This document shows, one piece after another, positions 1,732-58,146 of a stretch of 64,000 nucleotides of DNA (positions are counted from its first letter, which is position 1; every line of letters starts with the position of its first letter). A program made the translations under genes and the position numbers. The stretch lies in the IMG/VR virus record IMGVR_UViG_3300027793_000087. One strand, written 5' to 3'. The notes below the pieces were generated by a model. That model searched no databases and was not told the origin of the DNA. It saw nothing but the letters and a program-made list of their open reading frames with translations. This DNA is from an uncultured virus (IMG/VR IMGVR_UViG_3300027793_000087). Lineage: Duplodnaviria > Heunggongvirae > Uroviricota > Caudoviricetes.

Positions 1732-1856
1732 AGATTTTCCCTTGTGTTGCGTCATTCTAGGTCTGGTCGTTTTGGTGTGTCAATACGGCAAAATTTGCCG
1801 TTTTTGATTGTCGGCCACTTACGATCCAAAGTTAAAGTCAATTCTCGAATATTGCC

Positions 1857-1991
1857 GGGGTTGCGGGGGTAGTAGGGGTCTAAACGTAATTATTCGTTTT
1901 TAAATTAAAAATTAAAAATGAAATTATTCTGGACCGACCTCACATAGACCCCCGCTACCCCTACTACCCCTGACAAATGTCCGGACAAGTT
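1857..1991. repeat. Origin-like element copy 1: GGGGTAG/CTACCCC inverted iterons around an AT-rich core
   Basis: GGGGTAGTAGGGGTCTA...AT-rich...TAGACCCCCGCTACCCCTACTACCCC. Near-copy at 10041-10178. Confidence 0.75.
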
Positions 1992-2157
1992 AGGCACGGT
2001 TCAGGTAGCGATCGGCAAAAATTGCCGCCGCCAGATACATATCCTTGGCCGCCTGTTCCATCTCGAGCGCCAACGACTCGGCCATTCGCTTGGCGTAGTA
2101 GTTGGTCCCTGCCTGGGCAAGCATAAACTTTAGGATAAGCTCTTCACGTGTTTCCAT
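1990..2157 (-). CDS. Hypothetical protein, 55 aa (METREELILKFML...)
   Basis: Read by hand; AAGGAG RBS upstream; below the ORF-track cutoff. Confidence 0.6.
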   Translation of the reverse strand: METREELILKFMLAQAGTNYYAKRMAESLALEMEQAAKDMYLAAAIFADRYLNRA

Positions 2158-2173
2158 GTTAGTGACTCCTTGG

Positions 2174-2374
2174 TTAGTTAATTGGGATAAAATTTTTGCG
2201 TTTTAAGACGTCCGTGAACCACTCCCTGAACTCTGCCCTTGCCTCTGGGCTCTGGACGTCGTACGGGCCGCATATCGCGTCCAGGACGTGCTCTCCGGTC
2301 TCGGAGTCGTTTGCCACGATCCGCTGCAGTATGCCGCGATCGTCGTGCACCTCGATCAGTCTGACCTTTTTCAA
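2174..2374 (-). CDS. Hypothetical protein, 66 aa
   Basis: TTG start overlapping the stop of the sigma gene; 3' part of track ORF 2174..2602. Confidence 0.55.
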   Translation of the reverse strand: MKKVRLIEVHDDRGILQRIVANDSETGEHVLDAICGPYDVQSPEARAEFREWFTDVLKRKNFIPIN

Positions 2375-2943
2375 TCCTCGCTCTCCTCTTGAAATTTTTC
2401 CTGATTGAATGACTCCAGCGATGCCGGCTCCCTGGATATGTGCTCCCTGAGCTCGTCCAGGCGGCTGACGTGGACCTTGAGACGGTCGGCCAGCTCGGCG
2501 TCGGTGGGCTCCCTTCTCAGCTCCTGGCTCATGGCCCGCTCGGTGTACTTCATGCGCCGTATCTCCTCGGCCACGTTGACGGGGACCCGGATCAGGCTCC
2601 ACTCGTTATCAAGGGCCCTCCTCACGCCCTTGAGAATGAACGGCTTTGCGTACGTCGCGAACCGGGCACCATTCTTCGGGGTCCACTTCTTGGCGGCTCG
2701 GATCAGCGCCTCGTTGCCCATGGCGATGAGATCCTCGAACGGCACCGCCCCGTGGTGCCATGCCGGTGTCTCCTTGACGACCGAAACGACAAACCTGAGG
2801 TTGTGCCGTACAAGTTTCTCCAGCGCGGCGTTGTCTCCGGAGGCGATCATGCCGGCCAGCCGCTCCTCCTCCTCGAGCGGCAGGGGCTGTACCGAGTACA
2901 GCCGGCCCAAATAGCTTGATATGGCGGATCGGTCACTTGGCAA
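2371..2943 (-). CDS. Sigma-70 family factor, regions 1.2-3 only
   Basis: LVRHNLRFVVSV, FEDLIAMGNEALIRA, RFATYA, LIRVPVN, ELRREPTDAELA; ends after PASLE with no region 4. Confidence 0.88.
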   Translation of the reverse strand: MPSDRSAISSYLGRLYSVQPLPLEEEERLAGMIASGDNAALEKLVRHNLRFVVSVVKETPAWHHGAVPFEDLIAMGNEALIRAAKKWTPKNGARFATYAKPFILKGVRRALDNEWSLIRVPVNVAEEIRRMKYTERAMSQELRREPTDAELADRLKVHVSRLDELREHISREPASLESFNQEKFQEESED

Positions 2944-3067
2944 AATAGTAGCTCCCTGCGACCATCAGCAGCCCGATCACGATCATGGCGATGTGCTCGC
3001 CTGAGTAACCCCCGACGCTCATCAGCCAGCCAAGAAATGCCATAAAAAATCCGACGGCTCTCATCAT
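2933..3067 (-). CDS. Small membrane protein
   Basis: Two hydrophobic stretches; GGAG RBS. Confidence 0.5.
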   Translation of the reverse strand: MMRAVGFFMAFLGWLMSVGGYSGEHIAMIVIGLLMVAGSYYFAK

Positions 3068-3133
3068 ATAACTCCCGTAAGTTTCAGGACCGCGGCCACG
3101 ATCATGGCCACCCACAACAGCAACATCAGCGGC

Positions 3134-3355
3134 TCATCGTACTGCATGCTTTCTCTCCTTTGCGATGCACCAGTCCAGCGTGCGCTCTGCGTTCTTTCGT
3201 TGGCTCTCCTCGTCGTTTAAGTCGTCAAACTCGTAGACGTAGAGCGGCTCGTTGTCCTGGAGTACGGCCCACGCGTTGTGCGTGCCGTCGTACGTGGCTC
3301 GGATGTCGTTGACGTCGGCCGGGACGAATGCCGGGGCAAGCTTAAACTGGCTCAT
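3134..3355 (-). CDS. Hypothetical protein
   Basis: ORF, start overlaps upstream stop. Confidence 0.65.
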   Translation of the reverse strand: MSQFKLAPAFVPADVNDIRATYDGTHNAWAVLQDNEPLYVYEFDDLNDEESQRKNAERTLDWCIAKERKHAVR

Positions 3356-3654
3356 ATCGCCTCCATGTGTCGTGCGTACTCCTCGCCGTGGATGTCGGCC
3401 ACGTACTCAAACGAGCCCTTGGTCCCGCGCTTTACCTCGTCGCGTGACGGGATGCGTGATCCCCAGTAGTCGCGTGTGTGCTCGCGGCCCAGCATGCAGT
3501 GACCGTCTTCCAGTGCCTGCATCATGGCACGCCCGTAGGATCCCTGCATGCGCCATGCGTGGAGTGAGTTGATCGCGCGCTGCAGGCTCTCGAAGTACTG
3601 CTCCTGGGTCTCGGCGCCGCTCTCAATGGTGTCGATGTCTGTCGTGTCGAACAT
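3352..3654 (-). CDS. Hypothetical protein
   Basis: AGGAG RBS; AWRMQGSYGRAMM. Confidence 0.7.
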   Translation of the reverse strand: MFDTTDIDTIESGAETQEQYFESLQRAINSLHAWRMQGSYGRAMMQALEDGHCMLGREHTRDYWGSRIPSRDEVKRGTKGSFEYVADIHGEEYARHMEAI

Positions 3655-3667
3655 GTCTATTCTCCTT

Positions 3668-4012
3668 TTATGACCCCAGCGCGAGCTCGATGACTCGCAC
3701 CGGGAGGTGGTTTGGGTGGACCATCATATCGTCCCTGCCCGTGTCGCGGTAGCCCTCGAAGAAGTCATGGTGGACGTCTTTTGTGGCCTCCTGCTGCTTC
3801 TTGGCGATGGCGAACAGCTGTCGCCATGTCGGGTTGAGCAGGACCTTTGAACGAAAGGGCCGGCTGTCCTCGCCGCCAAAAAATTGGTCTCGCTCGGCCC
3901 GGACCTGGCACAGCCCGGTGAACGCGACAAGGTTCTGTCGCATCCACCAGCAGCCGACCTGCGGGTCGAAGACGCCGCGCTCGAAGTCGTGTGTCGATAC
4001 GGAGTATCTCAT
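3668..4012 (-). CDS. Hypothetical protein
   Basis: ATGA-coupled to upstream gene. Confidence 0.65.
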   Translation of the reverse strand: MRYSVSTHDFERGVFDPQVGCWWMRQNLVAFTGLCQVRAERDQFFGGEDSRPFRSKVLLNPTWRQLFAIAKKQQEATKDVHHDFFEGYRDTGRDDMMVHPNHLPVRVIELALGS

Positions 4013-4281
4013 TCGGCGACCCCCGTCACCTCGAGTATGGTCTCGCGGTTCACGGCCCGGTACGAGGCCTTGGTCATGTCGTAGACCGTGACGTACTTCG
4101 AGGCATCGAGGGTGCTCTTGCCGCCCTTGAGGTGCTTGGTGACGCCCATCCGGCAGTTCATCTTGCGGATGCTGCCGTCGGACTTGAGAAATGTCACGGT
4201 GACGAATCCCTTGGCCTGCTCAAGCTTCTCGGCCAGCTTGCGGGACTGGACGGGGTCGATGGTGATTCCTTTGTTCTGCAT
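4009..4281 (-). CDS. SH3-like/WYL-like small protein
   Basis: FVTVTFLKSDGSIRKMNCRMGV...VTVYDM...YRAVN pattern; AGGAG RBS. Confidence 0.6.
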   Translation of the reverse strand: MQNKGITIDPVQSRKLAEKLEQAKGFVTVTFLKSDGSIRKMNCRMGVTKHLKGGKSTLDASKYVTVYDMTKASYRAVNRETILEVTGVAE

Positions 4282-4294
4282 GGTAGTGCTCCTT

Positions 4295-4489
4295 TTAGGC
4301 TGTTTTTGATTGTAAAACGTCAAACCGCTTGATTGCTTTTTCGGGCATGTCGATCACCCGAATGCGCCAAGATCCGATACCGCTGCGGTCGTCTGAGATG
4401 TCCACAATTGTGGCCCGGACTCTGTCGAGGCGTTTGATTGTGTTTGTCAGCGATCGCGTGTCTGATAACACGACTATTTCTTCTTGCAT
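4295..4489 (-). CDS. Hypothetical protein, 64 aa
   Basis: AAGGAGCACTACCATG leader, shared with the next gene. Confidence 0.6.
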   Translation of the reverse strand: MQEEIVVLSDTRSLTNTIKRLDRVRATIVDISDDRSGIGSWRIRVIDMPEKAIKRFDVLQSKTA

Positions 4490-4517
4490 GGTAGTGCTCC
4501 TTGTTGTTGAGATTGAA

Positions 4518-4820
4518 TTATATGACTTCGTAGCTGCCGCGTACAGCCCTGGCCCAGCGCTTGGCGTAGTCCTTGGCCTCGTCCTCGTAGCGGCCGCCGC
4601 CGTACAGGACCGCGGGCCACCAGCGCTCCTCGTAGTCGGGGTGGTCTGAGTTCTCGTCGCCGTAGACCACCCACGACCCGCCGTCGTACGTGACGGTGAT
4701 GACGGGCTCGGGCGGCTCCTCGACGGACCAGAGCTCGCGCTCGTCTTGCACGACCGTGACGTTGATCGTGGCCGGCTCGCCTGCCGCGTCGAAGACATCA
4801 AGAGGGTATGTCGTGCTCAT
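4518..4820 (-). CDS. Hypothetical protein, 100 aa
   Basis: GGAGG RBS, ATGA overlap. Confidence 0.6.
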   Translation of the reverse strand: MSTTYPLDVFDAAGEPATINVTVVQDERELWSVEEPPEPVITVTYDGGSWVVYGDENSDHPDYEERWWPAVLYGGGRYEDEAKDYAKRWARAVRGSYEVI

Positions 4821-5017
4821 GCTGCCTCCTTGGCCGGGTTGGCGTGCGACGCTGCCGACGCGCGCAGGATCTCGTCCGCGAGCTTCACGGCGTCGGCGTT
4901 GTGCAGGTAGAACGTCGCCGTGACGGGGAAATTGTGGACGCTGATGATGACGTCGCCGTCGTCGCAGGGTATTGCGCTGATGGAGTAGCGCGACTCGTTG
5001 TAGGTGTAGTCTTGCAT
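4817..5017 (-). CDS. Hypothetical protein
   Basis: AGGAG RBS, downstream of promoter-like repeat. Confidence 0.65.
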   Translation of the reverse strand: MQDYTYNESRYSISAIPCDDGDVIISVHNFPVTATFYLHNADAVKLADEILRASAASHANPAKEAA

Positions 5018-5049
5018 GGTCTTGCTCCTTTTTGTGGTTGGTATGTGTT

Positions 5050-5069
5050 TGGTTTTTCGTGGGTACTTT
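5050..5069 (-). promoter_or_regulatory. Early promoter-like repeat AAAGTACCCACGAAAAACCA, copy 1
   Basis: Identical 20-mer found five times, each upstream of a minus-strand gene. Confidence 0.6.
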
Positions 5070-5141
5070 TACGGCAGGTCCCACGGGCGCATTACGAGAA
5101 CGACGGCCGCGAGGCCGGCCAGCAGAATGATCTCGCCCATG

Positions 5142-5414
5142 TCAGATCACCTTGTCGTACTCAAAGCCCAGCGACTCGACGATGTAGGCGATGGCATGCC
5201 AGCCCTCGCTGTCCATGGCGCCCCACTTGTAGCCGATGCGCAGGGCCTCTCCGAGGCGGCTGATCTTGCCCTCGAGCAGCAGGCGCTCGATCTCGCGGTT
5301 CATCTTGGCCGCGATCTCGTCACGGCCGGGCTCGCCGTACAGCGACCAGTCGTCGGCGGTGAGGTTGATCTCGGCACGTACCGAGATGCTGATTGGTTTG
5401 ACTTTTTGTGACAT
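5142..5414 (-). CDS. Hypothetical protein
   Basis: GGAG RBS. Confidence 0.65.
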   Translation of the reverse strand: MSQKVKPISISVRAEINLTADDWSLYGEPGRDEIAAKMNREIERLLLEGKISRLGEALRIGYKWGAMDSEGWHAIAYIVESLGFEYDKVI

Positions 5415-5417
5415 GGT

Positions 5418-5705
5418 TTATTGCTCCGTTTGTTGTGGTTGGTATTGTGGATAATTGCGGACCCAAGAGTACTGTTTGCGGCTCGATGTGTTGCGCTCCC
5501 GGTACCGCGGCTCGATGCCGTACTTTGTGCGGTACTCGATATGGAACCGGGACAAGTCGCAATCCTCCTCTAGGTAAACCCAATCCCCCCGTTGGTATGA
5601 GTAGTGCGAGATCTGCGCCTCGATGCCCAAGTCGCGCAGCAGCGCGCGCGGCACCTTGGCCCAGCCGTGGCCGGCGTCGGCAATAAAGTCGAACGTTTTT
5701 TGCAT
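5418..5705 (-). CDS. Conserved-looking phage hypothetical protein
   Basis: DAGHGWAKV...SHYSYQRGDWVYLEEDCD; AGGAG RBS. Confidence 0.7.
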   Translation of the reverse strand: MQKTFDFIADAGHGWAKVPRALLRDLGIEAQISHYSYQRGDWVYLEEDCDLSRFHIEYRTKYGIEPRYRERNTSSRKQYSWVRNYPQYQPQQTEQ

Positions 5706-5730
5706 GGTGTGCTCCTGTTGTTGTGTTGGT

Positions 5731-5835
5731 GGGAGAGGGCGGGCAGCTGACTCCCGAATCCGCCCCACTGCGGCGCGCGGAGGGTATTCGTCCGTCGCGT
5801 TGTCCCGCAGTGCAGGGCTGCACTTTCCCTCTCCC
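5731..5835 (-). ncRNA. Unclassified multi-stem structured RNA with possible kissing loop
   Basis: 9-bp closing stem GGGAGAGGG/CCCUCUCCC, three internal hairpins, loop complementarity CGAAU/AUUCG. Confidence 0.6.
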
Positions 5836-5840
5836 GTTGA

Positions 5841-6056
5841 TCACTCGGTCGACAGGCCGGCGGCGCTGTCTGCGTTGTACTGCTCGGCGCTGTACCAGCC
5901 GTCGATCTTGGCCGGCGGCGGGTAGCCGCAGGTGTGCAGGTTGGCGTCGTGCTCGGCGCGGGCCTGCTTACGTGCCTGCTGCTTTCTGTCCCACTCGCGG
6001 GCAAGCTTCAGCTGGTTGTTGAAGTACTGGTCGAAGATGTCGTTGACTGATTGCAT
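5841..6056 (-). CDS. Hypothetical protein
   Basis: CAACAGGAGCACACCATG leader. Confidence 0.6.
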   Translation of the reverse strand: MQSVNDIFDQYFNNQLKLAREWDRKQQARKQARAEHDANLHTCGYPPPAKIDGWYSAEQYNADSAAGLSTE

Positions 6057-6076
6057 GGTGTGCTCCTGTTGTGTTG

Positions 6077-6352
6077 TCATTCTACTGGTTTTTCGTGGGT
6101 ACTTTTTTGCTGCTCGATTCGGGCCTCGGTCACCTTGCGCTGCGCCCAGTGGTAGCCGTGTGAGAGGGCCTCCATGTAGCTGCGGTGGGTGTAGTACCGG
6201 ACGCTGCCCCGGCCGTGGGCCCTTGACTGGGCCGTGACCTTGCCGTCGGGCCAGTACGTGATCCGGTAGTGCATGCCCTCCGGGAGGCCGTCTGCCCGGA
6301 CACTGGCCGACATCCCGCCGTCGGGCCTGAATCGCTCAAAGAATTCGATCAT
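6077..6352 (-). CDS. Hypothetical protein
   Basis: GGGGAG RBS, ATGA overlap. Confidence 0.6.
   Translation of the reverse strand: MIEFFERFRPDGGMSASVRADGLPEGMHYRITYWPDGKVTAQSRAHGRGSVRYYTHRSYMEALSHGYHWAQRKVTEARIEQQKSTHEKPVE
6083..6105 (-). promoter_or_regulatory. Early promoter-like repeat, copy 2
   Basis: AAAGTACCCACGAAAAACCAG followed by TAGAAT. Confidence 0.65.
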
Positions 6353-6558
6353 ATCTCTCCCCTTGTCAGCCGCTCTAGCTGTTTCGTTGCGTTGGCCCAC
6401 TGCGAGACCATCTCGGCAGAGTCCTCGAATTCGTAGTCGATCACTGGCGTCTCGGTGCCGTCTGTCTCGACGCGGCAGATCCTGAATAAATCCGACATGT
6501 CGTGATCGCAGCGCTCGACGCCGTTGCCGATGTTGCGGTATGGGTGAAGTGTGTACAT
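6349..6558 (-). CDS. Hypothetical protein, 69 aa
   Basis: CAGGAG RBS before MYTLHPYRN. Confidence 0.6.
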   Translation of the reverse strand: MYTLHPYRNIGNGVERCDHDMSDLFRICRVETDGTETPVIDYEFEDSAEMVSQWANATKQLERLTRGEI

Positions 6559-6587
6559 GGTGTCACTCCTGTGTTGTGGTTGGTATC

Positions 6588-7031
6588 TTACTGGTTTTTC
6601 GTGGGTACTTTGTAGATCGCGAAGACGCGCGACCCGGCGCGCGTGCCTGCGGTGTCGATGATCCTGCCATCGACGACGGCAAAGGCGTGGCCCGTGATCA
6701 GGACCACGTGCCGGCCGTCTTGCAGGCCCCGCAGCGCGGTCTCCACGGTCATGCCTTGGCCGGGTGTGGTGTTGGTGAAGCTGCCCGCGAAACGTGCTCG
6801 GCCCGTGGACCCGTAGACCCCGACCAGCCGCAGGCCCGCCTCGATGTAGGCCTTGTGGTAGGTCGAGAACGTGGCGCCCTTGCGGAAGCGGCGCCCGTGT
6901 TTGGATAGAAGGGCGTGCGCCTCGCCGTAGTCCCAGCCGGCTGCGTTGGCCAGCGCGCGGACGGTGCAGTCTCTGGCCTCGTTCATTCTTGACTGGCCCT
7001 GAGAGACGGGCCATAGCGTTTTGCGTGTCAT
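6588..7031 (-). CDS. Hypothetical protein with Cys...His motif
   Basis: RDCTVRALA...GHAFAVVDG; RBS downstream of hammerhead 1. Confidence 0.65.
   Translation of the reverse strand: MTRKTLWPVSQGQSRMNEARDCTVRALANAAGWDYGEAHALLSKHGRRFRKGATFSTYHKAYIEAGLRLVGVYGSTGRARFAGSFTNTTPGQGMTVETALRGLQDGRHVVLITGHAFAVVDGRIIDTAGTRAGSRVFAIYKVPTKNQ
6589..6611 (-). promoter_or_regulatory. Early promoter-like repeat, copy 3
   Basis: Core followed by TAAGAT. Confidence 0.65.
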
Positions 7032-7053
7032 GGTGTCTTGCTCCTGTTGTGTT

Positions 7054-7105
7054 GCACTGGACCCCGTCTCCGGGGTTTCGGCCATTGAGGCCTCGTCAGC
7101 AGTGC
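7054..7105 (-). ncRNA. Type I hammerhead ribozyme 1
   Basis: GCACUG CUGACGA GGCC UCAAU GGCC GAAA CCCCG GAGA CGGGG UC^CAGUGC. Confidence 0.93.
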
Positions 7106-7462
7106 TCAGAATGAGAAGTCGTGGTAATGGTCGCGGAATCCAAGGATCAGCCCGCCATACCTGTGCGACTTCCAGCGCCCGGTCTCGGGGTTGCGGATTA
7201 CACGGACCCAGCGATTGTCGCGGTCGCGCCGGTAGTGGTTGATCGGCGCGTTGGGGTTGGGCGTGCACTCGTACTGCTGGGCGTCGGACATGCCGTTGGC
7301 GTCGGTGCGGCGGACGTCGTCGTCTTGGACCGAGACGATCTTGCCGTCCCACGCCACGACGGTGCCTGCCTGTCGGTCGGTGTATCCGGTCATGGTGGCG
7401 CCCATGCCCACGACGGGCTCTGGTGCGTTGATTGTCATCGCCTCGTACATTTCATTGATCAT
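7106..7462 (-). CDS. Hypothetical protein, 118 aa
   Basis: EPVVGMGAT...TDR...RDHYHDFSF; RBS after hammerhead 2. Confidence 0.7.
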   Translation of the reverse strand: MINEMYEAMTINAPEPVVGMGATMTGYTDRQAGTVVAWDGKIVSVQDDDVRRTDANGMSDAQQYECTPNPNAPINHYRRDRDNRWVRVIRNPETGRWKSHRYGGLILGFRDHYHDFSF

Positions 7463-7484
7463 GGTTTTGCTCCTGTGTTGTGTT

Positions 7485-7536
7485 GCACTGGACCCCGTCG
7501 CCGGGGTTTCGGCCACTCAGGCCTCGTCAGCAGTGC
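7485..7536 (-). ncRNA. Type I hammerhead ribozyme 2
   Basis: GCACUG CUGACGA GGCC UGAGU GGCC GAAA CCCCG GCGA CGGGG UC^CAGUGC. Confidence 0.93.
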
Positions 7537-7717
7537 TGATCCATTTCAAATTGTAGACGGAGGGAAAATACTCGCCCGCCGTTGTCCACACACGCCCGGT
7601 CGATCCGGTGTGGTGTGGTGGCTGCCCGCCTTTCAGGGTTGCGGATTCACCGCGAAACGATGTCACTGTCGCGCCGGGTTTTACTGGGTTGTTTTGATTG
7701 TCTACTAGTGTCCACAT
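7517..7717 (-). CDS. Hypothetical protein; 3' end overlaps hammerhead 2
   Basis: AGGAG RBS; stop TGA lies in ribozyme loop II. Confidence 0.65.
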   Translation of the reverse strand: MWTLVDNQNNPVKPGATVTSFRGESATLKGGQPPHHTGSTGRVWTTAGEYFPSVYNLKWISTADEA

Positions 7718-7750
7718 GGTTTAGCTCCTGTTGTGTTGTGGTTGGTGTCT

Positions 7751-7773
7751 TACTGGTTTTTCGTGGGTACTTT
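7751..7773 (-). promoter_or_regulatory. Early promoter-like repeat, copy 4
   Basis: Core followed by TAAGAC. Confidence 0.65.
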
Positions 7774-7775
7774 AT

Positions 7776-7827
7776 GCACTGGACCCCGTCTCCGGGGTTT
7801 CGGCCATTGAGGCCTCGTCAGCAGTGC
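7776..7827 (-). ncRNA. Type I hammerhead ribozyme 3
   Basis: Same sequence as copy 1. Confidence 0.93.
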
Positions 7828-7831
7828 TGGA

Positions 7832-8578
7832 TTATGCCGCAAGCTTGATCGGGATCACGCGCTGCGCCGTGTCGATCACGAACCCGCTGCCGTCGCGTTT
7901 TGCCTTGCCTTTGGCGTAGAGCGCGACGACGACGCCCTTGGGCTCGAGGTGGCGCACGTCGGAGTCGTCTCCGCCGATGCAGCGCATGCCCTGAAACGTC
8001 TCGGGGATCGACTCACGCGTGCGGAACACGACCGCGACGCGCATGCCGTTATCAATGGCCCGCTGCGCGTACTGGCGGAATGCCGCGACGCCGGAGTACG
8101 AAAACGTCAGATCGTAATTTGCCGGAATCTCGCGCCGATTGTTCAGCTTGGTGTAGTCGTAAAACTGCACGTTCGGGAACAGCTCGAACAGCGTACGGCC
8201 GCACGCAGCGCGGACCGTCTCCCACCGGATGTCGGACGTGCCGTTCAGCCGGACCAGCGGGGTCATGCCAAGCTTGGCAGCGCGACGGACCAGTCGCGCG
8301 ATGTCCTGCACCAGCAGTGACATAAAACCCGCGCGGTCCTCAAAAAAGAAATGCGTACGGTTTAGGCGCGCTGCCTGCACTGACGACATGGCGCCGCGGC
8401 CGGCGGTGAAGAGGCACGCCGACTTGCACCCGGCCAGCTCGGCCGTCGCGCAGACGTTGTGGCCAGACTGGTCGGCGGGGGCGAGATACAGGATGCCAGT
8501 CAGAAAGCCGAGGGTCTGGCCCTTGACGGTCTTGGCATTCGTGTCGATTGACAGCAGGTTTTTAGGTTTCTTGTGCAT
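7832..8578 (-). CDS. GP88-like (phage gene product 88) protein
   Basis: NVC...GCKSACL, RLNGTSDIRWE, QFYDYTK, NYDLTFSYSG, DDSDVRHLEP. Confidence 0.75.
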   Translation of the reverse strand: MHKKPKNLLSIDTNAKTVKGQTLGFLTGILYLAPADQSGHNVCATAELAGCKSACLFTAGRGAMSSVQAARLNRTHFFFEDRAGFMSLLVQDIARLVRRAAKLGMTPLVRLNGTSDIRWETVRAACGRTLFELFPNVQFYDYTKLNNRREIPANYDLTFSYSGVAAFRQYAQRAIDNGMRVAVVFRTRESIPETFQGMRCIGGDDSDVRHLEPKGVVVALYAKGKAKRDGSGFVIDTAQRVIPIKLAA

Positions 8579-8599
8579 GGTGTTTTGCTCCGTGTTGTT

Positions 8600-8651
8600 G
8601 CATCAGACCCGCTGTCGCGGGTTTCGGCCACTCAGGCCTCGTCAGTGATGC
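8600..8651 (-). ncRNA. Type I hammerhead ribozyme 4
   Basis: GCAUCA CUGACGA GGCC UGAGU GGCC GAAA CCCGC GACA GCGGG UC^UGAUGC; compensatory changes in stems I and III. Confidence 0.93.
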
Positions 8652-8655
8652 TGAA

Positions 8656-8904
8656 TCAGCGCGCGTCCATCTGCTGTTGGCGACGCTGTGTCGAATCCCA
8701 ACAATCGAGCACGCCGAGGTCGTCGCAGACCCACATTGCGAAGATGTCTTCTCGGGTATACCCGGCCGGCATTGGGCGCTGATTGATGCGGGTGACAAGG
8801 TGCTCGATGTAGTCCGCATCGAAGAGGTCGAATGCGTCTTTGATGTCGTGCTCTTCTGCTACCTGCTTGACGATGGCCGTGGCCTGCTTGGTGGTGATGT
8901 GCAT
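8656..8904 (-). CDS. Hypothetical protein
   Basis: GGAG RBS between hammerheads 5 and 4. Confidence 0.65.
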   Translation of the reverse strand: MHITTKQATAIVKQVAEEHDIKDAFDLFDADYIEHLVTRINQRPMPAGYTREDIFAMWVCDDLGVLDCWDSTQRRQQQMDAR

Positions 8905-8925
8905 GGTGTCATTCTCCGTGTTGTT

Positions 8926-8977
8926 GCATCAGACCCGCTGTCGCGGGTTTCGGCCAATCAGGCCTCGTCAGTGATGC
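8926..8977 (-). ncRNA. Type I hammerhead ribozyme 5
   Basis: As copy 4 with loop II UGAUU. Confidence 0.93.
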
Positions 8978-8981
8978 TGAA

Positions 8982-9188
8982 TCAGTCCTCCCAGTGCAAG
9001 ACCCTCACGTCTCCCTCGATGACGCCGACAATCCGGACGTCGTCCGGGCTGTCGCATCCCCAGTCGGCGGCGCACTTCGTTTTTGCCTTGTCGCAGGCCT
9101 GATCGACTGTCTCGGCCTGCACTGCGCTGATCCATGTAGTGCCGCCAGCGTTGATGTTGTCGCCGCAAAATACTGTAAATGTGTTCAT
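8982..9188 (-). CDS. Hypothetical protein (first early gene)
   Basis: AGGAG RBS downstream of promoter-like repeat 5. Confidence 0.65.
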   Translation of the reverse strand: MNTFTVFCGDNINAGGTTWISAVQAETVDQACDKAKTKCAADWGCDSPDDVRIVGVIEGDVRVLHWED

Positions 9189-9221
9189 GGTGTGGATCTC
9201 CTGTGGTTAATGTGTCCACTG

Positions 9222-9244
9222 TACTGGTTTTTCGTGGGTACTTT
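9222..9244 (-). promoter_or_regulatory. Early promoter-like repeat, copy 5
   Basis: Core followed by TACAGT. Confidence 0.65.
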
Positions 9245-9387
9245 TATGGGCGCGCCACGCCGGCACGTTGTGCTGTGCAACACGCTAGCCCCCTACTCTG
9301 CCCTCGTGCGCGCGAATGCCTCTGTGGCCGCATTGCGGGCCCGCCACGCCGTCGACGCGCCCTCCCCTACCCCGGCCCCTGCCCCCC

Positions 9388-9396
9388 TGTGGATAA
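9388..9396. promoter_or_regulatory. DnaA box
   Basis: TGTGGATAA, reverse complement of consensus TTATCCACA, in non-coding DNA. Confidence 0.5.
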
Positions 9397-9451
9397 CGGC
9401 ACCACGGCGATTTCCCACATTGCGAAATCTGCAGCCCCCGCCGCGCCAGTC

Positions 9452-9508
9452 TGGCATGATTCTTGCTAGGCAATACGCGTGCCGTGGCATGCTGGCACGA
9501 TTCTTGCA
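9452..9508. promoter_or_regulatory. Cluster of sigma-54 (-24/-12)-like sites
   Basis: TGGCATGATTCTTGCT (9452), TGGCACGATTCTTGCA (9493), and CGGCACGCGTATTGC on the minus strand between them. Confidence 0.55.
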
Positions 9509-9512
9509 TAGT

Positions 9513-9766
9513 AGTGAGCGCACACTAACTTATGTTGCGGTGCAATATGATAGTGAGCGCACACTGACCAAGCTGTTGCGCCGCAGCATGTTAGTGTGCG
9601 CACACTGGGGCGCTGGCAACGTGTTAGTGAGTACTCACTGGGGCTGGTGCAGTGCGGCATATTGTTGCGCCGCAACATGTTAGTGAGCGCTCACTGGGGC
9701 GTTGTGCACTGCAGCAAAATGGTGCGGTGCAACATAGGCAACCCGGCGCTTTGTTGCGACGCAGCA
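9513..9766. repeat. Interleaved palindromes AGTGWGYRCWCACT (x5) and TGC-N2/3-GCA-type boxes (~7)
   Basis: Palindromes at 9513, 9552, 9593, 9626, 9682, alternating with TGTTGCGCCGCAACAT-like motifs. Confidence 0.8.
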
Positions 9767-9919
9767 CCCCTTTCGGGTCCCGTCGGTCGGGTGGGCGGTG
9801 GCCCCGCCTCAGACCAAAAGCTGCTCAATTCCAGATTTTTTCGCTCGAAACCTGAAAATTTTTTATATTTTTTCATAATGTGAAAAGTATAGAGAAAGTT
9901 GCGTAAACGCCACACTTCT

Positions 9920-9940
9920 AAATGAGAATTGTTCTTATTT
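9920..9940. promoter_or_regulatory. Fur-box-like palindrome
   Basis: AAATGAGAATTGTTCTTATTT. Confidence 0.45.
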
Positions 9941-10040
9941 GTCAGGGGTTGCGGGGGTTGTGCGGGGGTCCGTATAGAGAATTTGTATAGAGAAAAAAAC
10001 CCGCTAAGTCATTGATTTTATTGAATAGTTGACATAATTC

Positions 10041-10178
10041 TGTCAGGGGTAGTAGGGGTAGTAGGGGTCTAAACGACTTTTTTTATTTTTAAATGAAAAA
10101 TGAAAAATAAAATATCTACACCGACCTGGATTAGACCCCCGCTACCCCCGCTACCCCTGACAAATGTACGGACAAGTT
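10041..10178. repeat. Origin-like element copy 2
   Basis: Direct near-repeat of 1857-1991 with the same iterons, AT core and TGACAAATGT.CGGACAAGTT tail. Confidence 0.75.
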
Positions 10179-10232
10179 GACCCTGGATTGAGGTGGCAAA
10201 CTGGCCGCAACTTGCCTGGTTGCCGGTCGATG

Positions 10233-10262
10233 GGGCGGTTGTCTAGAGAAAGCTGTATTGGT
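10233..10262 (+). promoter_or_regulatory. Putative late promoter GGGCG-N16-TGTATTGGT
   Basis: Same bipartite motif and spacing as at 17161, 21114, 40221 and 58418(-). Confidence 0.55.
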
Positions 10263-10271
10263 AGTATAGAG

Positions 10272-10496
10272 ATGAAAAGATACAACCCAAACACCAAGAC
10301 ACCCTTCAGGCGCGGCGACGTACGCCACGACGGGTACGTCTTTTTTGCCTACACCAACAAGAGAAAGGCCGACGGCCACTTTGTTGAGATCTGGCTCAGC
10401 CCGCAGGCATCGGATAAGGCCACGGCAAACGACCGAGCCAGGAAGAGGCTAAAGGCCCGTGGCAATCGACGCCAAGACGCCGCTGCCAACGCCTGA
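10272..10496 (+). CDS. Hypothetical basic protein, 74 aa
   Basis: FRRGDVRHDGYVF...EIWLSP; directly after promoter motif. Confidence 0.6.
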   Translation: MKRYNPNTKTPFRRGDVRHDGYVFFAYTNKRKADGHFVEIWLSPQASDKATANDRARKRLKARGNRRQDAAANA

Positions 10497-11427
10497 CGGA
10501 TGGACGGCGGCCTCAGACATACGGCCAGGAGACCTTGTGTTCTGCTCAGACGGTGGGACTCAGAGGGTCCTGTCGGTCCAGAGCCACATCCCGTCGGCCT
10601 GCTACAGGGTGGAGCTAAGCGGGGGTCTCTCGATCGTGGGCGATCACAACATGACTTTCTCCCTGCAGTGCCGCAAGTGGAGGAACCGCCTGCAGATGTG
10701 GATACGAAACCAGAGCTCCAAGTTTGCGAAGAAAAGGTTCCGAAGGCCCCTGGCCGTAAGAAGCGTGGCCCAGATGCTCGATGAGGGCCTGGACGACAAC
10801 CGAAACAGAAAAAAGTGGGCACTTACTAACATCGAGCCTCTTAGGTACCCACACGTCGATCTTCCGGTCCCTCCCTACGTCCTCGGGCTGTGGCTTGGGT
10901 CGATGACAAAGTCCGGCAGGCACTGGGTCAGGGGCAAGGACATGGAGAGAATATCCAAGAAATGCCGCCGGCATGGGTTCTTCATAACCCAAAACCGCGG
11001 CGAGTTCTTCTTCCGGCCGAGTGTCAGGGAGTCTTTTACCTTCGCGGGTGCCCCGATACCGGACAAGATACCATCATCCTACCTGGAGAGCGACGTAGAG
11101 AGCCGACAGATGCTGCTTGAGGGGCTGATAGACTCCGAGGATGCCAAGAAACAGGCCCACGGAGAGGAGTGCTACACGATACAGGACTCCTGGCTATCGG
11201 CAAAGCGCAAGCAGCAGCTCCTGGAGAGCCTCGGACACACCACCTCGCTGACAAAAAGGGACGACAGGGCACGTTTTGCTCTTAATTTTTGCAAAATACT
11301 GACCCCGGCACCCAAAAATCGTCGCCAAATAGTGAAAATTGACAAAATTAGGCCCAGACAGTGCGTACACATCGTGACAGAGCACGATTTTGTCGCCGCG
11401 GAGGGCTTTTTGAGCGTAAAGATGTGA
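10459..11427 (+). CDS. Free-standing degenerate intein-like (Hint + LAGLIDADG-like) protein
   Basis: AIDAKTPLPTPDGW...IRPGDLV, LPVPPYVLGLWLG, LLEGLIDSED; no terminal His-Asn. Confidence 0.8.
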   Translation: MAIDAKTPLPTPDGWTAASDIRPGDLVFCSDGGTQRVLSVQSHIPSACYRVELSGGLSIVGDHNMTFSLQCRKWRNRLQMWIRNQSSKFAKKRFRRPLAVRSVAQMLDEGLDDNRNRKKWALTNIEPLRYPHVDLPVPPYVLGLWLGSMTKSGRHWVRGKDMERISKKCRRHGFFITQNRGEFFFRPSVRESFTFAGAPIPDKIPSSYLESDVESRQMLLEGLIDSEDAKKQAHGEECYTIQDSWLSAKRKQQLLESLGHTTSLTKRDDRARFALNFCKILTPAPKNRRQIVKIDKIRPRQCVHIVTEHDFVAAEGFLSVKM

Positions 11428-58066: not shown

Positions 58067-58146
58067 TGGTGGAGCCGCCGGGATTCGCACCCGGGTCCGC
58101 CGGGTTCGCTTCGGTTTTATCCCGTCGTCGAAACTATTCCGGCCCC
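58067..58146 (-). ncRNA. tmRNA-like RNA, tRNA-like domain only (80 nt)
   Basis: GGGGCCG...UUCGAC...GGAC CCGGG UGCGAAU CCCGG CGGCUCC ACCA; G3:U70, A73, CCA. Confidence 0.8.

What the first reader, a model, noticed from the sequence alone, without database searches (positions are those of the whole stretch)
7054..8977. Five hammerhead ribozymes punctuate consecutive early genes
Seen: five 52-nt elements on the coding (minus) strand at 7054, 7485, 7776, 8600 and 8926. Each has the full core CUGACGA / GAAA / GUC with stems I-III. Stem I (GCACUG:CAGUGC vs GCAUCA:UGAUGC) and stem III (CCCCG:CGGGG vs CCCGC:GCGGG) show compensatory changes, and loop III stays GNNA. Four cut sites lie 27-28 nt before the next AUG, ahead of an A/C-rich leader and RBS. 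Established: this is type I hammerhead topology, cleavage leaves 5'-OH and 2',3'-cyclic phosphate, and hammerheads have been reported in some phages. Inference: the early polycistronic mRNA cuts itself into single-gene mRNAs without protein, analogous to T7 RNase III sites, and the 5'-OH ends may slow RNase E decay.
Basis: partly seen in the sequence, partly recalled or inferred. Interest (0 to 1): 0.9.

Follow-up and report, generated by a model that had tools for sequence, protein, structure and literature searches.

The report
Five hammerhead ribozymes between phage genes
Five small self-cutting RNA motifs sit between the first genes of an uncultured freshwater phage and probably cut its message into gene-sized pieces; this layout has been known in phages since 2011, but these copies carry a folding signature I could not find described and mark places where related phages gain or lose genes.

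Summary
Observation confirmed: five 52-nt type I hammerhead motifs with a full core lie on the coding strand at the stated places (0 equally good hits in 100 shuffles). Stems covary across 24 copies from this and related viral contigs. Cleavage is untested. The reading 'phage mRNA cuts itself into gene-sized pieces' is plausible but was proposed, and partly tested, by Perreault et al. 2011.

They belong to a class with a U-N-A-N-U loop II and adenines on both sides of a G-C pair closing stem I (81 of 84 have A1.7, against 1 of 13 in the other class). This scan noted the same two classes earlier in another genome. (2) A promoter-like repeat occurs five times, so the region may not be one transcript. 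(3) A 95%-identical relative lacks the two genes between two identical copies. (4) Relatives put an uncatalogued hairpin in the same slots. The RNase E idea is untested and the host is unknown. Verdict: new variant of a known kind, moderate interest.

The parts
8926..8977 (-). Hammerhead 1 (type I); predicted cut between 8932 and 8931; loop II UGAUU; 4 nt behind the stop codon of the 68-aa gene; 27 nt before AUG 8904
8600..8651 (-). Hammerhead 2 (type I); cut 8606/8605; loop II UGAGU; 4 nt behind the stop of the 82-aa gene; 27 nt before AUG 8578
   Evidence: stem I probability only 0.05-0.08 in longer contexts
7776..7827 (-). Hammerhead 3 (type I); cut 7782/7781; loop II UCAAU; identical to hammerhead 5; followed after 3 nt by a promoter-like repeat; 64 nt before AUG 7717
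7485..7536 (-). Hammerhead 4 (type I); cut 7491/7490; loop II UGAGU holds the UGA stop of the 66-aa gene; 28 nt before AUG 7462
   Evidence: competing hairpin, stem I probability 0.01-0.06
7054..7105 (-). Hammerhead 5 (type I); cut 7060/7059; loop II UCAAU; begins directly after the UGA stop of the 118-aa gene; 28 nt before AUG 7031
9218..9243 (-). Promoter-like repeat D2, copy 1 (conserved 20-mer then TACAGT), before the first gene
   Evidence: promoter function is inference
7747..7772 (-). D2 copy 2 (hexamer TAAGAC), between hammerhead 3 and the 66-aa gene
6585..6610 (-). D2 copy 3 (TAAGAT), at the end of the 147-aa gene
6079..6104 (-). D2 copy 4 (TAGAAT)
5043..5068 (-). D2 copy 5, degenerate hexamer (ACACAT)
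8982..9188 (-). 68-aa gene, unknown function (weak phrog_29605)
8656..8904 (-). 82-aa gene, no family match
7832..8578 (-). 248-aa gene, Pfam GP88 (PF17338) / phrog_1617, unknown function
7517..7717 (-). 66-aa gene (weak phrog_35924); reads into hammerhead 4
7106..7462 (-). 118-aa gene, no family match
6588..7031 (-). 147-aa gene, phrog_3754, unknown function; preceded by a hammerhead in 13 of 15 relatives examined
2371..2943 (-). Phage sigma factor with Pfam regions 2 and 3 and no region 4 match; candidate reader of D2 (inference)

Best explanation
The five elements are active type I hammerhead ribozymes used as mRNA-processing sites in the first-positioned gene array of a tailed phage. Steps: (a) Shown from sequence: each fills the gap between a stop codon and a short A/C-rich leader with a Shine-Dalgarno motif. 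(b) Inferred from the intact core and covarying stems: each cuts after GUC. (c) Established chemistry: the upstream piece ends in a 2',3'-cyclic phosphate and the downstream piece starts with a 5'-OH. (d) Inferred: the upstream gene keeps hairpins II and III as a structured 3' end, and the downstream gene gets a uniform 27-28 nt leader whatever gene stood before it, like a natural RiboJ-type insulator. (e) Inferred from covariation: loop II (U-N-A-N-U) docks on the adenines that flank the G2.6-C1.6 end of stem I, replacing the known U1.7-A contact. Because the copies are near-identical, they also serve as crossover points for gene gain and loss; I read this as a side effect that the insulator function makes harmless.
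For: Intact core in 5 of 5. On 24 chosen equal-length copies, all 384 stem cells pair and 13 of 16 pairs change on both sides, above all 500 shuffles and all slid controls (the copies were picked by a pairing descriptor, so 100% pairing is partly built in). In 86 distinct copies of this class, 81 have a Shine-Dalgarno motif and AUG within 64 nt of the cut, median 27 nt; an upstream ORF was found for 77, and in all 77 its stop lies inside the ribozyme or at most 4 nt before stem I. Docking signature: of 84 copies whose loop II starts with U, 81 have A1.7 (55 have A at 1.8); of 13 others, 12 have U1.7 and 12 end the loop in A. A2.7 holds in 50 of 51 copies where it is not part of a stop-like triplet. 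The same class occurs five times on a contig binned as a Chloroflexota MAG. Published arrays of this kind cleave in vitro and in E. coli (PMC3088659). Related phages put a different structured RNA in the same slots, so the slot, not the ribozyme, seems to be what is kept. Predicted opening of the Shine-Dalgarno motif rises after the cut, most for 7054 (0.04-0.49 to 0.64) and 8600 (0.35 to 0.61).
Against: No cleavage or transcript end was observed. Nearest-neighbour folding gives stem I a probability of 0.01-0.08 for 7485 and 8600 and 0.10-0.60 for 7776, depending on context; in 96-nt windows the full fold is the minimum-energy structure for 3 of 5. Promoter-like repeats already subdivide the region. 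Only 4 of 80 loci with a GP88-like gene hold any hammerhead within the fetched DNA, one of them identical to this window, so the genes do not need it. The cultured relative Caulobacter phage RW has none. Opening of the Shine-Dalgarno motif hardly changes for 7776 and 7485. Flush contact with stop codons may only reflect compact packing. Class counts are not corrected for relatedness.
Confidence: 0.62

Rival explanations
1. The repeats are kept mainly as DNA recombination joints for swapping small early genes; the ribozyme is a passenger or only tidies the junction.
For: L046, 95% identical to the window, lacks window 7107-7774, and the junction lies inside the two identical copies 7776 and 7054. 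L010/L038 has the same direct join. The 66-aa gene family is followed by a hammerhead and then by a different gene in each of three phages.
Against: A second L046 difference (window 8584-9181) breaks in the leader just before AUG, not in a ribozyme, and other swaps break at D2 leaders. Recombination needs only identity, yet copies diverge in stem sequence while keeping pairing, core and docking signature.
Confidence: 0.15
2. The ribozymes are down-regulators or translation-coupled switches: cleavage shortens the life of the mRNA or cuts distal genes off from upstream promoters, and a ribosome ending at the upstream stop codon blocks or delays folding.
For: In all five, the stop codon lies within 4 nt of stem I or inside loop II, so a terminating ribosome would cover stem I (inference). 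Competing hairpins are predicted for 7485 and 7776. glmS cleavage leads to decay (PMC6765202).
Against: The cut leaves a ready-made leader of fixed length with a Shine-Dalgarno motif in 81 of 86 copies, which fits expression rather than destruction. The upstream bases that form the competing hairpin are not conserved: positions 2.8-2.11 vary freely.
Confidence: 0.13
3. The pieces are re-ligated into circular or shuffled RNAs, since neighbouring copies of one lineage have matching stem I strands.
For: A piece between two copies with the same stem I carries a 5'-OH start and the ribozyme body with a cyclic phosphate at its end, so it could pair with itself (sequence). Full-length hammerheads ligate efficiently (PMC6155905).
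Against: Perreault et al. looked for spliced or circular products of such arrays and found none. The GP88-like gene lies between copies with unlike stem I strands, and relatives mix stem I types freely. No joints were seen in two low-depth RNA assemblies, which is weak.
Confidence: 0.05
4. The motifs are inactive relics or selfish inserts.
For: Patchy presence among relatives. One related copy has a broken stem II (L036).
Against: Core, pairing, docking signature and spacing are kept across divergent contigs.
Confidence: 0.05

Closest known systems
Clustered hammerhead ribozymes flanking single genes or short gene blocks in prophages (Perreault et al. 2011, PMC3088659; reviews PMC6155905 and PMC6765202)
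   Same: Several hammerheads close together, between small unconserved genes, on the coding strand; same proposed role, processing into single-gene mRNAs.
   Different: Five copies of one type I class in an apparently free tailed phage; fixed 27-28 nt leader; no convincing pseudoknot; strain-level gene loss between identical copies and swapping with another hairpin are shown here by comparison.
Schistosoma mansoni (type I) and sTRSV (type III) extended hammerheads with the U1.7-A(loop II) Hoogsteen contact (as described in PMC11875169 and PMC6155905)
   Same: Stem I-loop II docking at about the same distance from the core; 12 of 13 copies of the minority class in my set show exactly this U1.7 / loop-final A pattern.
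   Different: The five have A1.7, A2.7, G2.6-C1.6 and a U-N-A-N-U loop II, so the known contact cannot form as described.
Rfam RAGATH-1-hammerhead (RF03152)
   Same: Type I core; best Rfam match.
   Different: Scores of 22-23 bits against a gathering score of 56.3; its model has a 1-bp stem II and an upstream hairpin.
T7 early mRNA RNase III sites (PMC4858673)
   Same: Cuts between early genes that give mono- and dicistronic mRNAs.
   Different: T7 needs host RNase III and one long transcript; the ends are 5'-phosphate and 3'-OH (recalled), not 5'-OH and cyclic phosphate. Here internal promoter-like repeats also occur.
RiboJ ribozyme insulators of synthetic biology (PMC7536230)
   Same: A hammerhead cut gives each gene a uniform 5' leader; that paper models uncleaved mRNA as decaying faster.
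   Different: Engineered, placed after a promoter, with an added hairpin; here natural, between genes, with an unstructured leader.

Membership tests
Hammerhead ribozyme, type I | Core CUGANGA, GAAA and UH with G10.1-C11.1 and A15.1-U16.1 | tested here: met
   5 of 5; invariant in the 24-copy alignment apart from N7 and one C17 change
Hammerhead ribozyme, type I | Three helices around the core, supported by covariation | tested here: met
   13 of 16 pairs with changes on both sides; 0 of 500 shuffles reach it
Hammerhead ribozyme, type I | Stem I open, stems II and III closed by loops | tested here: met
   only the type I descriptor matches
Hammerhead ribozyme, type I | Self-cleavage after H17 giving 2',3'-cyclic phosphate and 5'-OH | not testable with these tools
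   needs a bench assay; RNA contigs cannot show ends
Rfam hammerhead families | Score at or above a family's gathering threshold | tested here: not met
Extended hammerheads with the U1.7-A(loop II) contact | Unpaired U1.7 and A at the last loop II position | tested here: not met
   all five have A1.7 and a loop ending in U
Pseudoknotted hammerheads (Perreault 2011) | Four or more pairs between loop II and a flank of stem I | tested here: inconclusive
   A2.7 and loop U1 are complementary in 73 of 73 but invariant; the next pairs hold in only 41 and 34 of 73
Clustered phage/prophage hammerheads | Several hammerheads flanking single small genes on the coding strand of a phage genome | tested here: met
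Clustered phage/prophage hammerheads | Transcript processed into gene-length pieces | tested here: inconclusive
   short contigs of this phage occur in two RNA libraries, but DNA carry-over and repeat-caused breaks cannot be excluded
T7-type RNase III processing sites | Long irregular double helix cut by a host protein | tested here: not met
   the elements are three-way junctions with 4-6 bp stems

The most novel reading that the evidence does not exclude
The five belong to an undescribed docking class of type I hammerheads (U-N-A-N-U loop II on an A/G-C/A platform at the end of stem I), common in phages. They work as plug-and-play gene cassette borders that both cut the RNA to give each gene a standard leader and let the DNA recombine to swap genes. 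The 47-nt hairpin that replaces them in relatives is a second, uncatalogued processing RNA, either an RNase III-type site or a new self-cleaving motif.
Probability: 0.3. Interest if true: 0.7.

Novelty: new variant of a known kind. Interest (0 to 1): 0.42.

Why it matters
[quoted passage not shown] This array does not settle it, and the phage is uncultured. It does give a clean test set: five short motifs with fixed leaders, natural deletion variants, and natural swaps with another hairpin. If the docking signature is a real third way to make a fast hammerhead, it is a very compact design (54 nt) that present Rfam models miss, which matters for annotation and for ribozyme insulators. If the replacing hairpin also cuts, it is a new processing element.

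Tried and rejected
Rfam at gathering score: no hammerhead hit. Own genome: none held. blastn of the region and of one copy against 50,697 phage records: no record with the array. A loop II / 5'-flank pseudoknot looked attractive in the window (UCA:UGA in three copies, UGA:UCA in 7054) but does not hold in relatives beyond the first pair. A2.7 as a by-product of stop codons and A1.7 as a by-product of A-rich leaders: both rejected. Loop III GNNA is not kept in relatives. Sigma-70 promoter scan of 1800-10500: no minus-strand site, 1 hit against 2.8 expected; terminators below chance. RNA data: two freshwater metatranscriptome assemblies hold 15 and 10 short contigs, 13 and 10 of them 99% alike; some end near ribozyme borders, but depth is about 2-6, repeats break contigs, a non-coding stretch near 10000-10300 is also covered, and 9 of 25 pieces were not shown, so nothing follows about transcription or ends; two further runs gave no contigs. 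Host: not found; the closest cultured terminase is 44% identical (Caulobacter phage RW group) and sigma hits are below 40%. RW has no hammerhead in its whole genome, nor do the 32 kb of MW202545 that I fetched. The replacing hairpin is absent from the window and matches no Rfam family. Paper searches for an earlier description of the docking class and for newer work on phage hammerhead arrays found nothing beyond the 2011 paper and reviews; the library lacks most subscription papers. Six loop II motifs were not found in the 11 supplementary files of PMC3088659 held as text, but its alignments may be gapped or cut and Figure S5 is a picture that I could not see.

Full report
Setting. The window is most of a tailed phage genome: terminase, portal and capsid genes run on the plus strand from 10459, and small unknown genes, a sigma factor, helicase, exonuclease, single-strand binding protein, ribonucleotide reductase and DNA polymerase run on the minus strand. 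The hammerheads lie among the first genes of the minus arm, right after a non-coding stretch at about 9250-10100. Caulobacter phage RW, the closest cultured relative by terminase (44%), has the same plan: small genes diverging from the terminase and leading to replication genes. 'Early' rests on this position alone. No host genome is held and the host is unknown. Contigs 99% alike occur in two freshwater libraries, and an IMG/VR contig is identical over the region (L003).

Observation. Confirmed in every coordinate. Five type I folds with the full core, stems of 6, 4 and 5 bp plus A15.1-U16.1; no strict hit in 100 shuffles; no further copy by a custom model. Rfam misses them at gathering score. 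From these and 80 GP88-selected loci a descriptor gave 194 distinct motifs: 127 type I, 63 type III, 4 type II. On 24 equal-length type I copies that I chose, every stem cell pairs and 13 of 16 pairs change on both sides. The copies were selected for pairing and are related, so this supports the fold but is not a probability.

Docking signature. The scan patterns fixed the core and stem II but not loop II or the flanks of stem I. Among 93 distinct type I copies with a 6-bp stem I, a 4-bp stem II and a 4-6 nt loop, two classes separate. With loop II starting in U (80): A2.7 in 79, G2.6 and C1.6 in 77, A1.7 in 78; in the 73 five-base loops, A at position 3 in 71 and U at position 5 in 62. Otherwise (13): U1.7 in 12 and a loop ending in A in 12. 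Taking one row per stem I sequence gives 28:2 against 1:12 (Fisher p 7e-8, not corrected for ancestry). A recount on all loci gives 81 of 84 and 1 of 13, and excludes stop codons and A-rich leaders as the cause. The small class matches the known U1.7-A Hoogsteen contact of the Schistosoma and sTRSV ribozymes (passages of PMC11875169, and PMC6155905); this acts as a positive control. The five window copies are in the large class. Which bases touch is unknown; a longer pseudoknot is not supported. My searches found no description, but Perreault et al. note that many hammerheads lack the known contacts and I could not see their Figure S5. An earlier report of this scan, e1-6469784, noted the same two classes in another genome; I saw it.

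Context. In 86 distinct copies of the class, 81 have a Shine-Dalgarno motif and AUG within 64 nt of the cut (median 27); in the 77 with a detectable upstream ORF, the stop is inside the ribozyme (29) or between one base inside and 4 nt before stem I (48). After the cut the leader is predicted largely open, and the upstream piece keeps two hairpins. The same call predicts poor stem I formation for 7485 and 8600 in longer contexts; the model ignores tertiary contacts and ribosomes, so this is a caution only.

Second repeat. A 22-mer occurs five times on the minus strand (0 in 100 shuffles) before genes at 9188, 7717, 6558, 6056 and 5017. Among 19 distinct matches to a pattern that does not fix the following bases, 15 have a Shine-Dalgarno motif and AUG 27-49 nt downstream; in these the next hexamer has T first in 13, A second in 10 and T last in 14 (five of the 15 are the window's own). 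That is the pattern of a -10 box without a TTGACA box (recalled consensus). I read it as a phage promoter, perhaps for the phage sigma factor that shows regions 2 and 3 only; this is inference. One copy follows hammerhead 3 directly, as in L002 and L028. So the array may be fed by several starts.

Gene shuffling. L046 is about 95% identical to the window but joins the GP88-like gene straight to the 147-aa gene through a single hammerhead; the 668 bases between the identical copies 7776 and 7054 are absent. It also lacks 8584-9181, but that break lies in the leader before AUG. Gene order after hammerheads differs among the 25 loci mapped (some are overlapping loci of one contig). Direction, loss or gain, is not determined.

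Replacing hairpin. Relatives carry a hairpin of about 47 nt that starts at the stop codon and ends at the same kind of leader. One 63-aa gene family is followed by a hammerhead on 4 contigs and by this hairpin on 5. Behind the GP88-like gene a model of it scores E below 0.01 in 7 of 80 loci. In 13 aligned copies 97% of cells pair and 8 of 17 pairs change on both sides, with an invariant two-by-two internal loop. It matches no Rfam family and is absent from the window. Its 20-22 bp irregular helix would fit an RNase III site (inference from recalled geometry). It suggests that the slot is a processing site that different RNAs can fill.

Comparison with what is known. Perreault et al. 2011 (PMC3088659; I read section 6, the first part of section 11 and passages) report hammerheads flanking single genes in prophages, propose single-gene mRNAs, show cleavage of three triple arrays in vitro and one in E. 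coli, and found no circles. Reviews (passages of PMC6765202, and PMC6155905) call the purpose open. T7 processing is by host RNase III at five sites (passage of PMC4858673). RiboJ insulators are the engineered analogue (passages of PMC7536230). PMC5737381 (passages) added nothing on this class. Protection from RNase E by a 5'-OH end is recalled knowledge and depends on a host that is unknown; glmS shows that cleavage can also lead to decay. This scan has recorded at least eight similar arrays in other genomes.

Verdict. Real and very probably active ribozymes (about 0.9) in a known arrangement; processing into gene-sized messages with standard leaders is the best reading (0.62). The docking signature, the deletion between identical copies and the swap with another hairpin make it a new variant rather than a plain repeat of 2011. 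Interest 0.42.

Noticed in passing
L007:4264-4317 (-), L046:6141-6195 and 7039-7094 (+), L198:5720-5775 (+), L297, L320 and others: Hairpin of about 47 nt with an invariant 2x2 internal loop, starting at a stop codon, in the same slots as the hammerheads; no Rfam match; in L228, L240, L244, L250, L261 and L263 a variant follows the GP88-like gene and is followed by a second hairpin. RNase III site or new processing RNA.
   Followed up: partly
window 5723-5838 (-); L046:6715-6850, L002:5862-5990, L053:5800-5918: Structured intergenic element of about 115 nt (z -3.8) with a 9-bp closing stem that covaries in 3 pairs across four copies; no Rfam match; follows a D2 repeat directly in L002 and L053.
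   Followed up: partly
window 5043-5068, 6079-6104, 6585-6610, 7747-7772, 9218-9243 (-): Five-copy promoter-like repeat D2, conserved in relatives; possible target of the phage sigma factor at 2371-2943, which shows no region 4 match.
   Followed up: partly
window 58067-58146 (-): 80-nt match to only the tRNA-like ends of tmRNA (Rfam RF00023, 54.5 bits), with about 10 nt in place of the mRNA-like part; ARAGORN reports nothing.
   Followed up: no
window 1857-1991 and 10046-10178: Two copies (82-86% alike) of a G+C-rich inverted repeat around an A+T-rich core, at the two ends of the small-gene array; origin-like or packaging-related.
   Followed up: no
window 9506-9704: Five or six short palindromic repeats in the non-coding stretch before the first gene, also seen in relatives; possible protein-binding sites.
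   Followed up: no
window 10459-11427 (+): 322-aa ORF just before the large terminase that matches only the N-terminal part of long terminase profiles; possibly a free-standing intein- or endonuclease-like piece.
   Followed up: no
L322:3001-5359 (+): Five hammerheads of the same class on a 7.8 kb contig binned as a Promineifilaceae MAG; may be a phage contig.
   Followed up: partly
L005, L006, L011-L013 and related loci; L060: A widespread type III hammerhead with the same stem II fused directly to a Shine-Dalgarno motif; L060 holds five type I copies with a 4-bp stem I.
   Followed up: no
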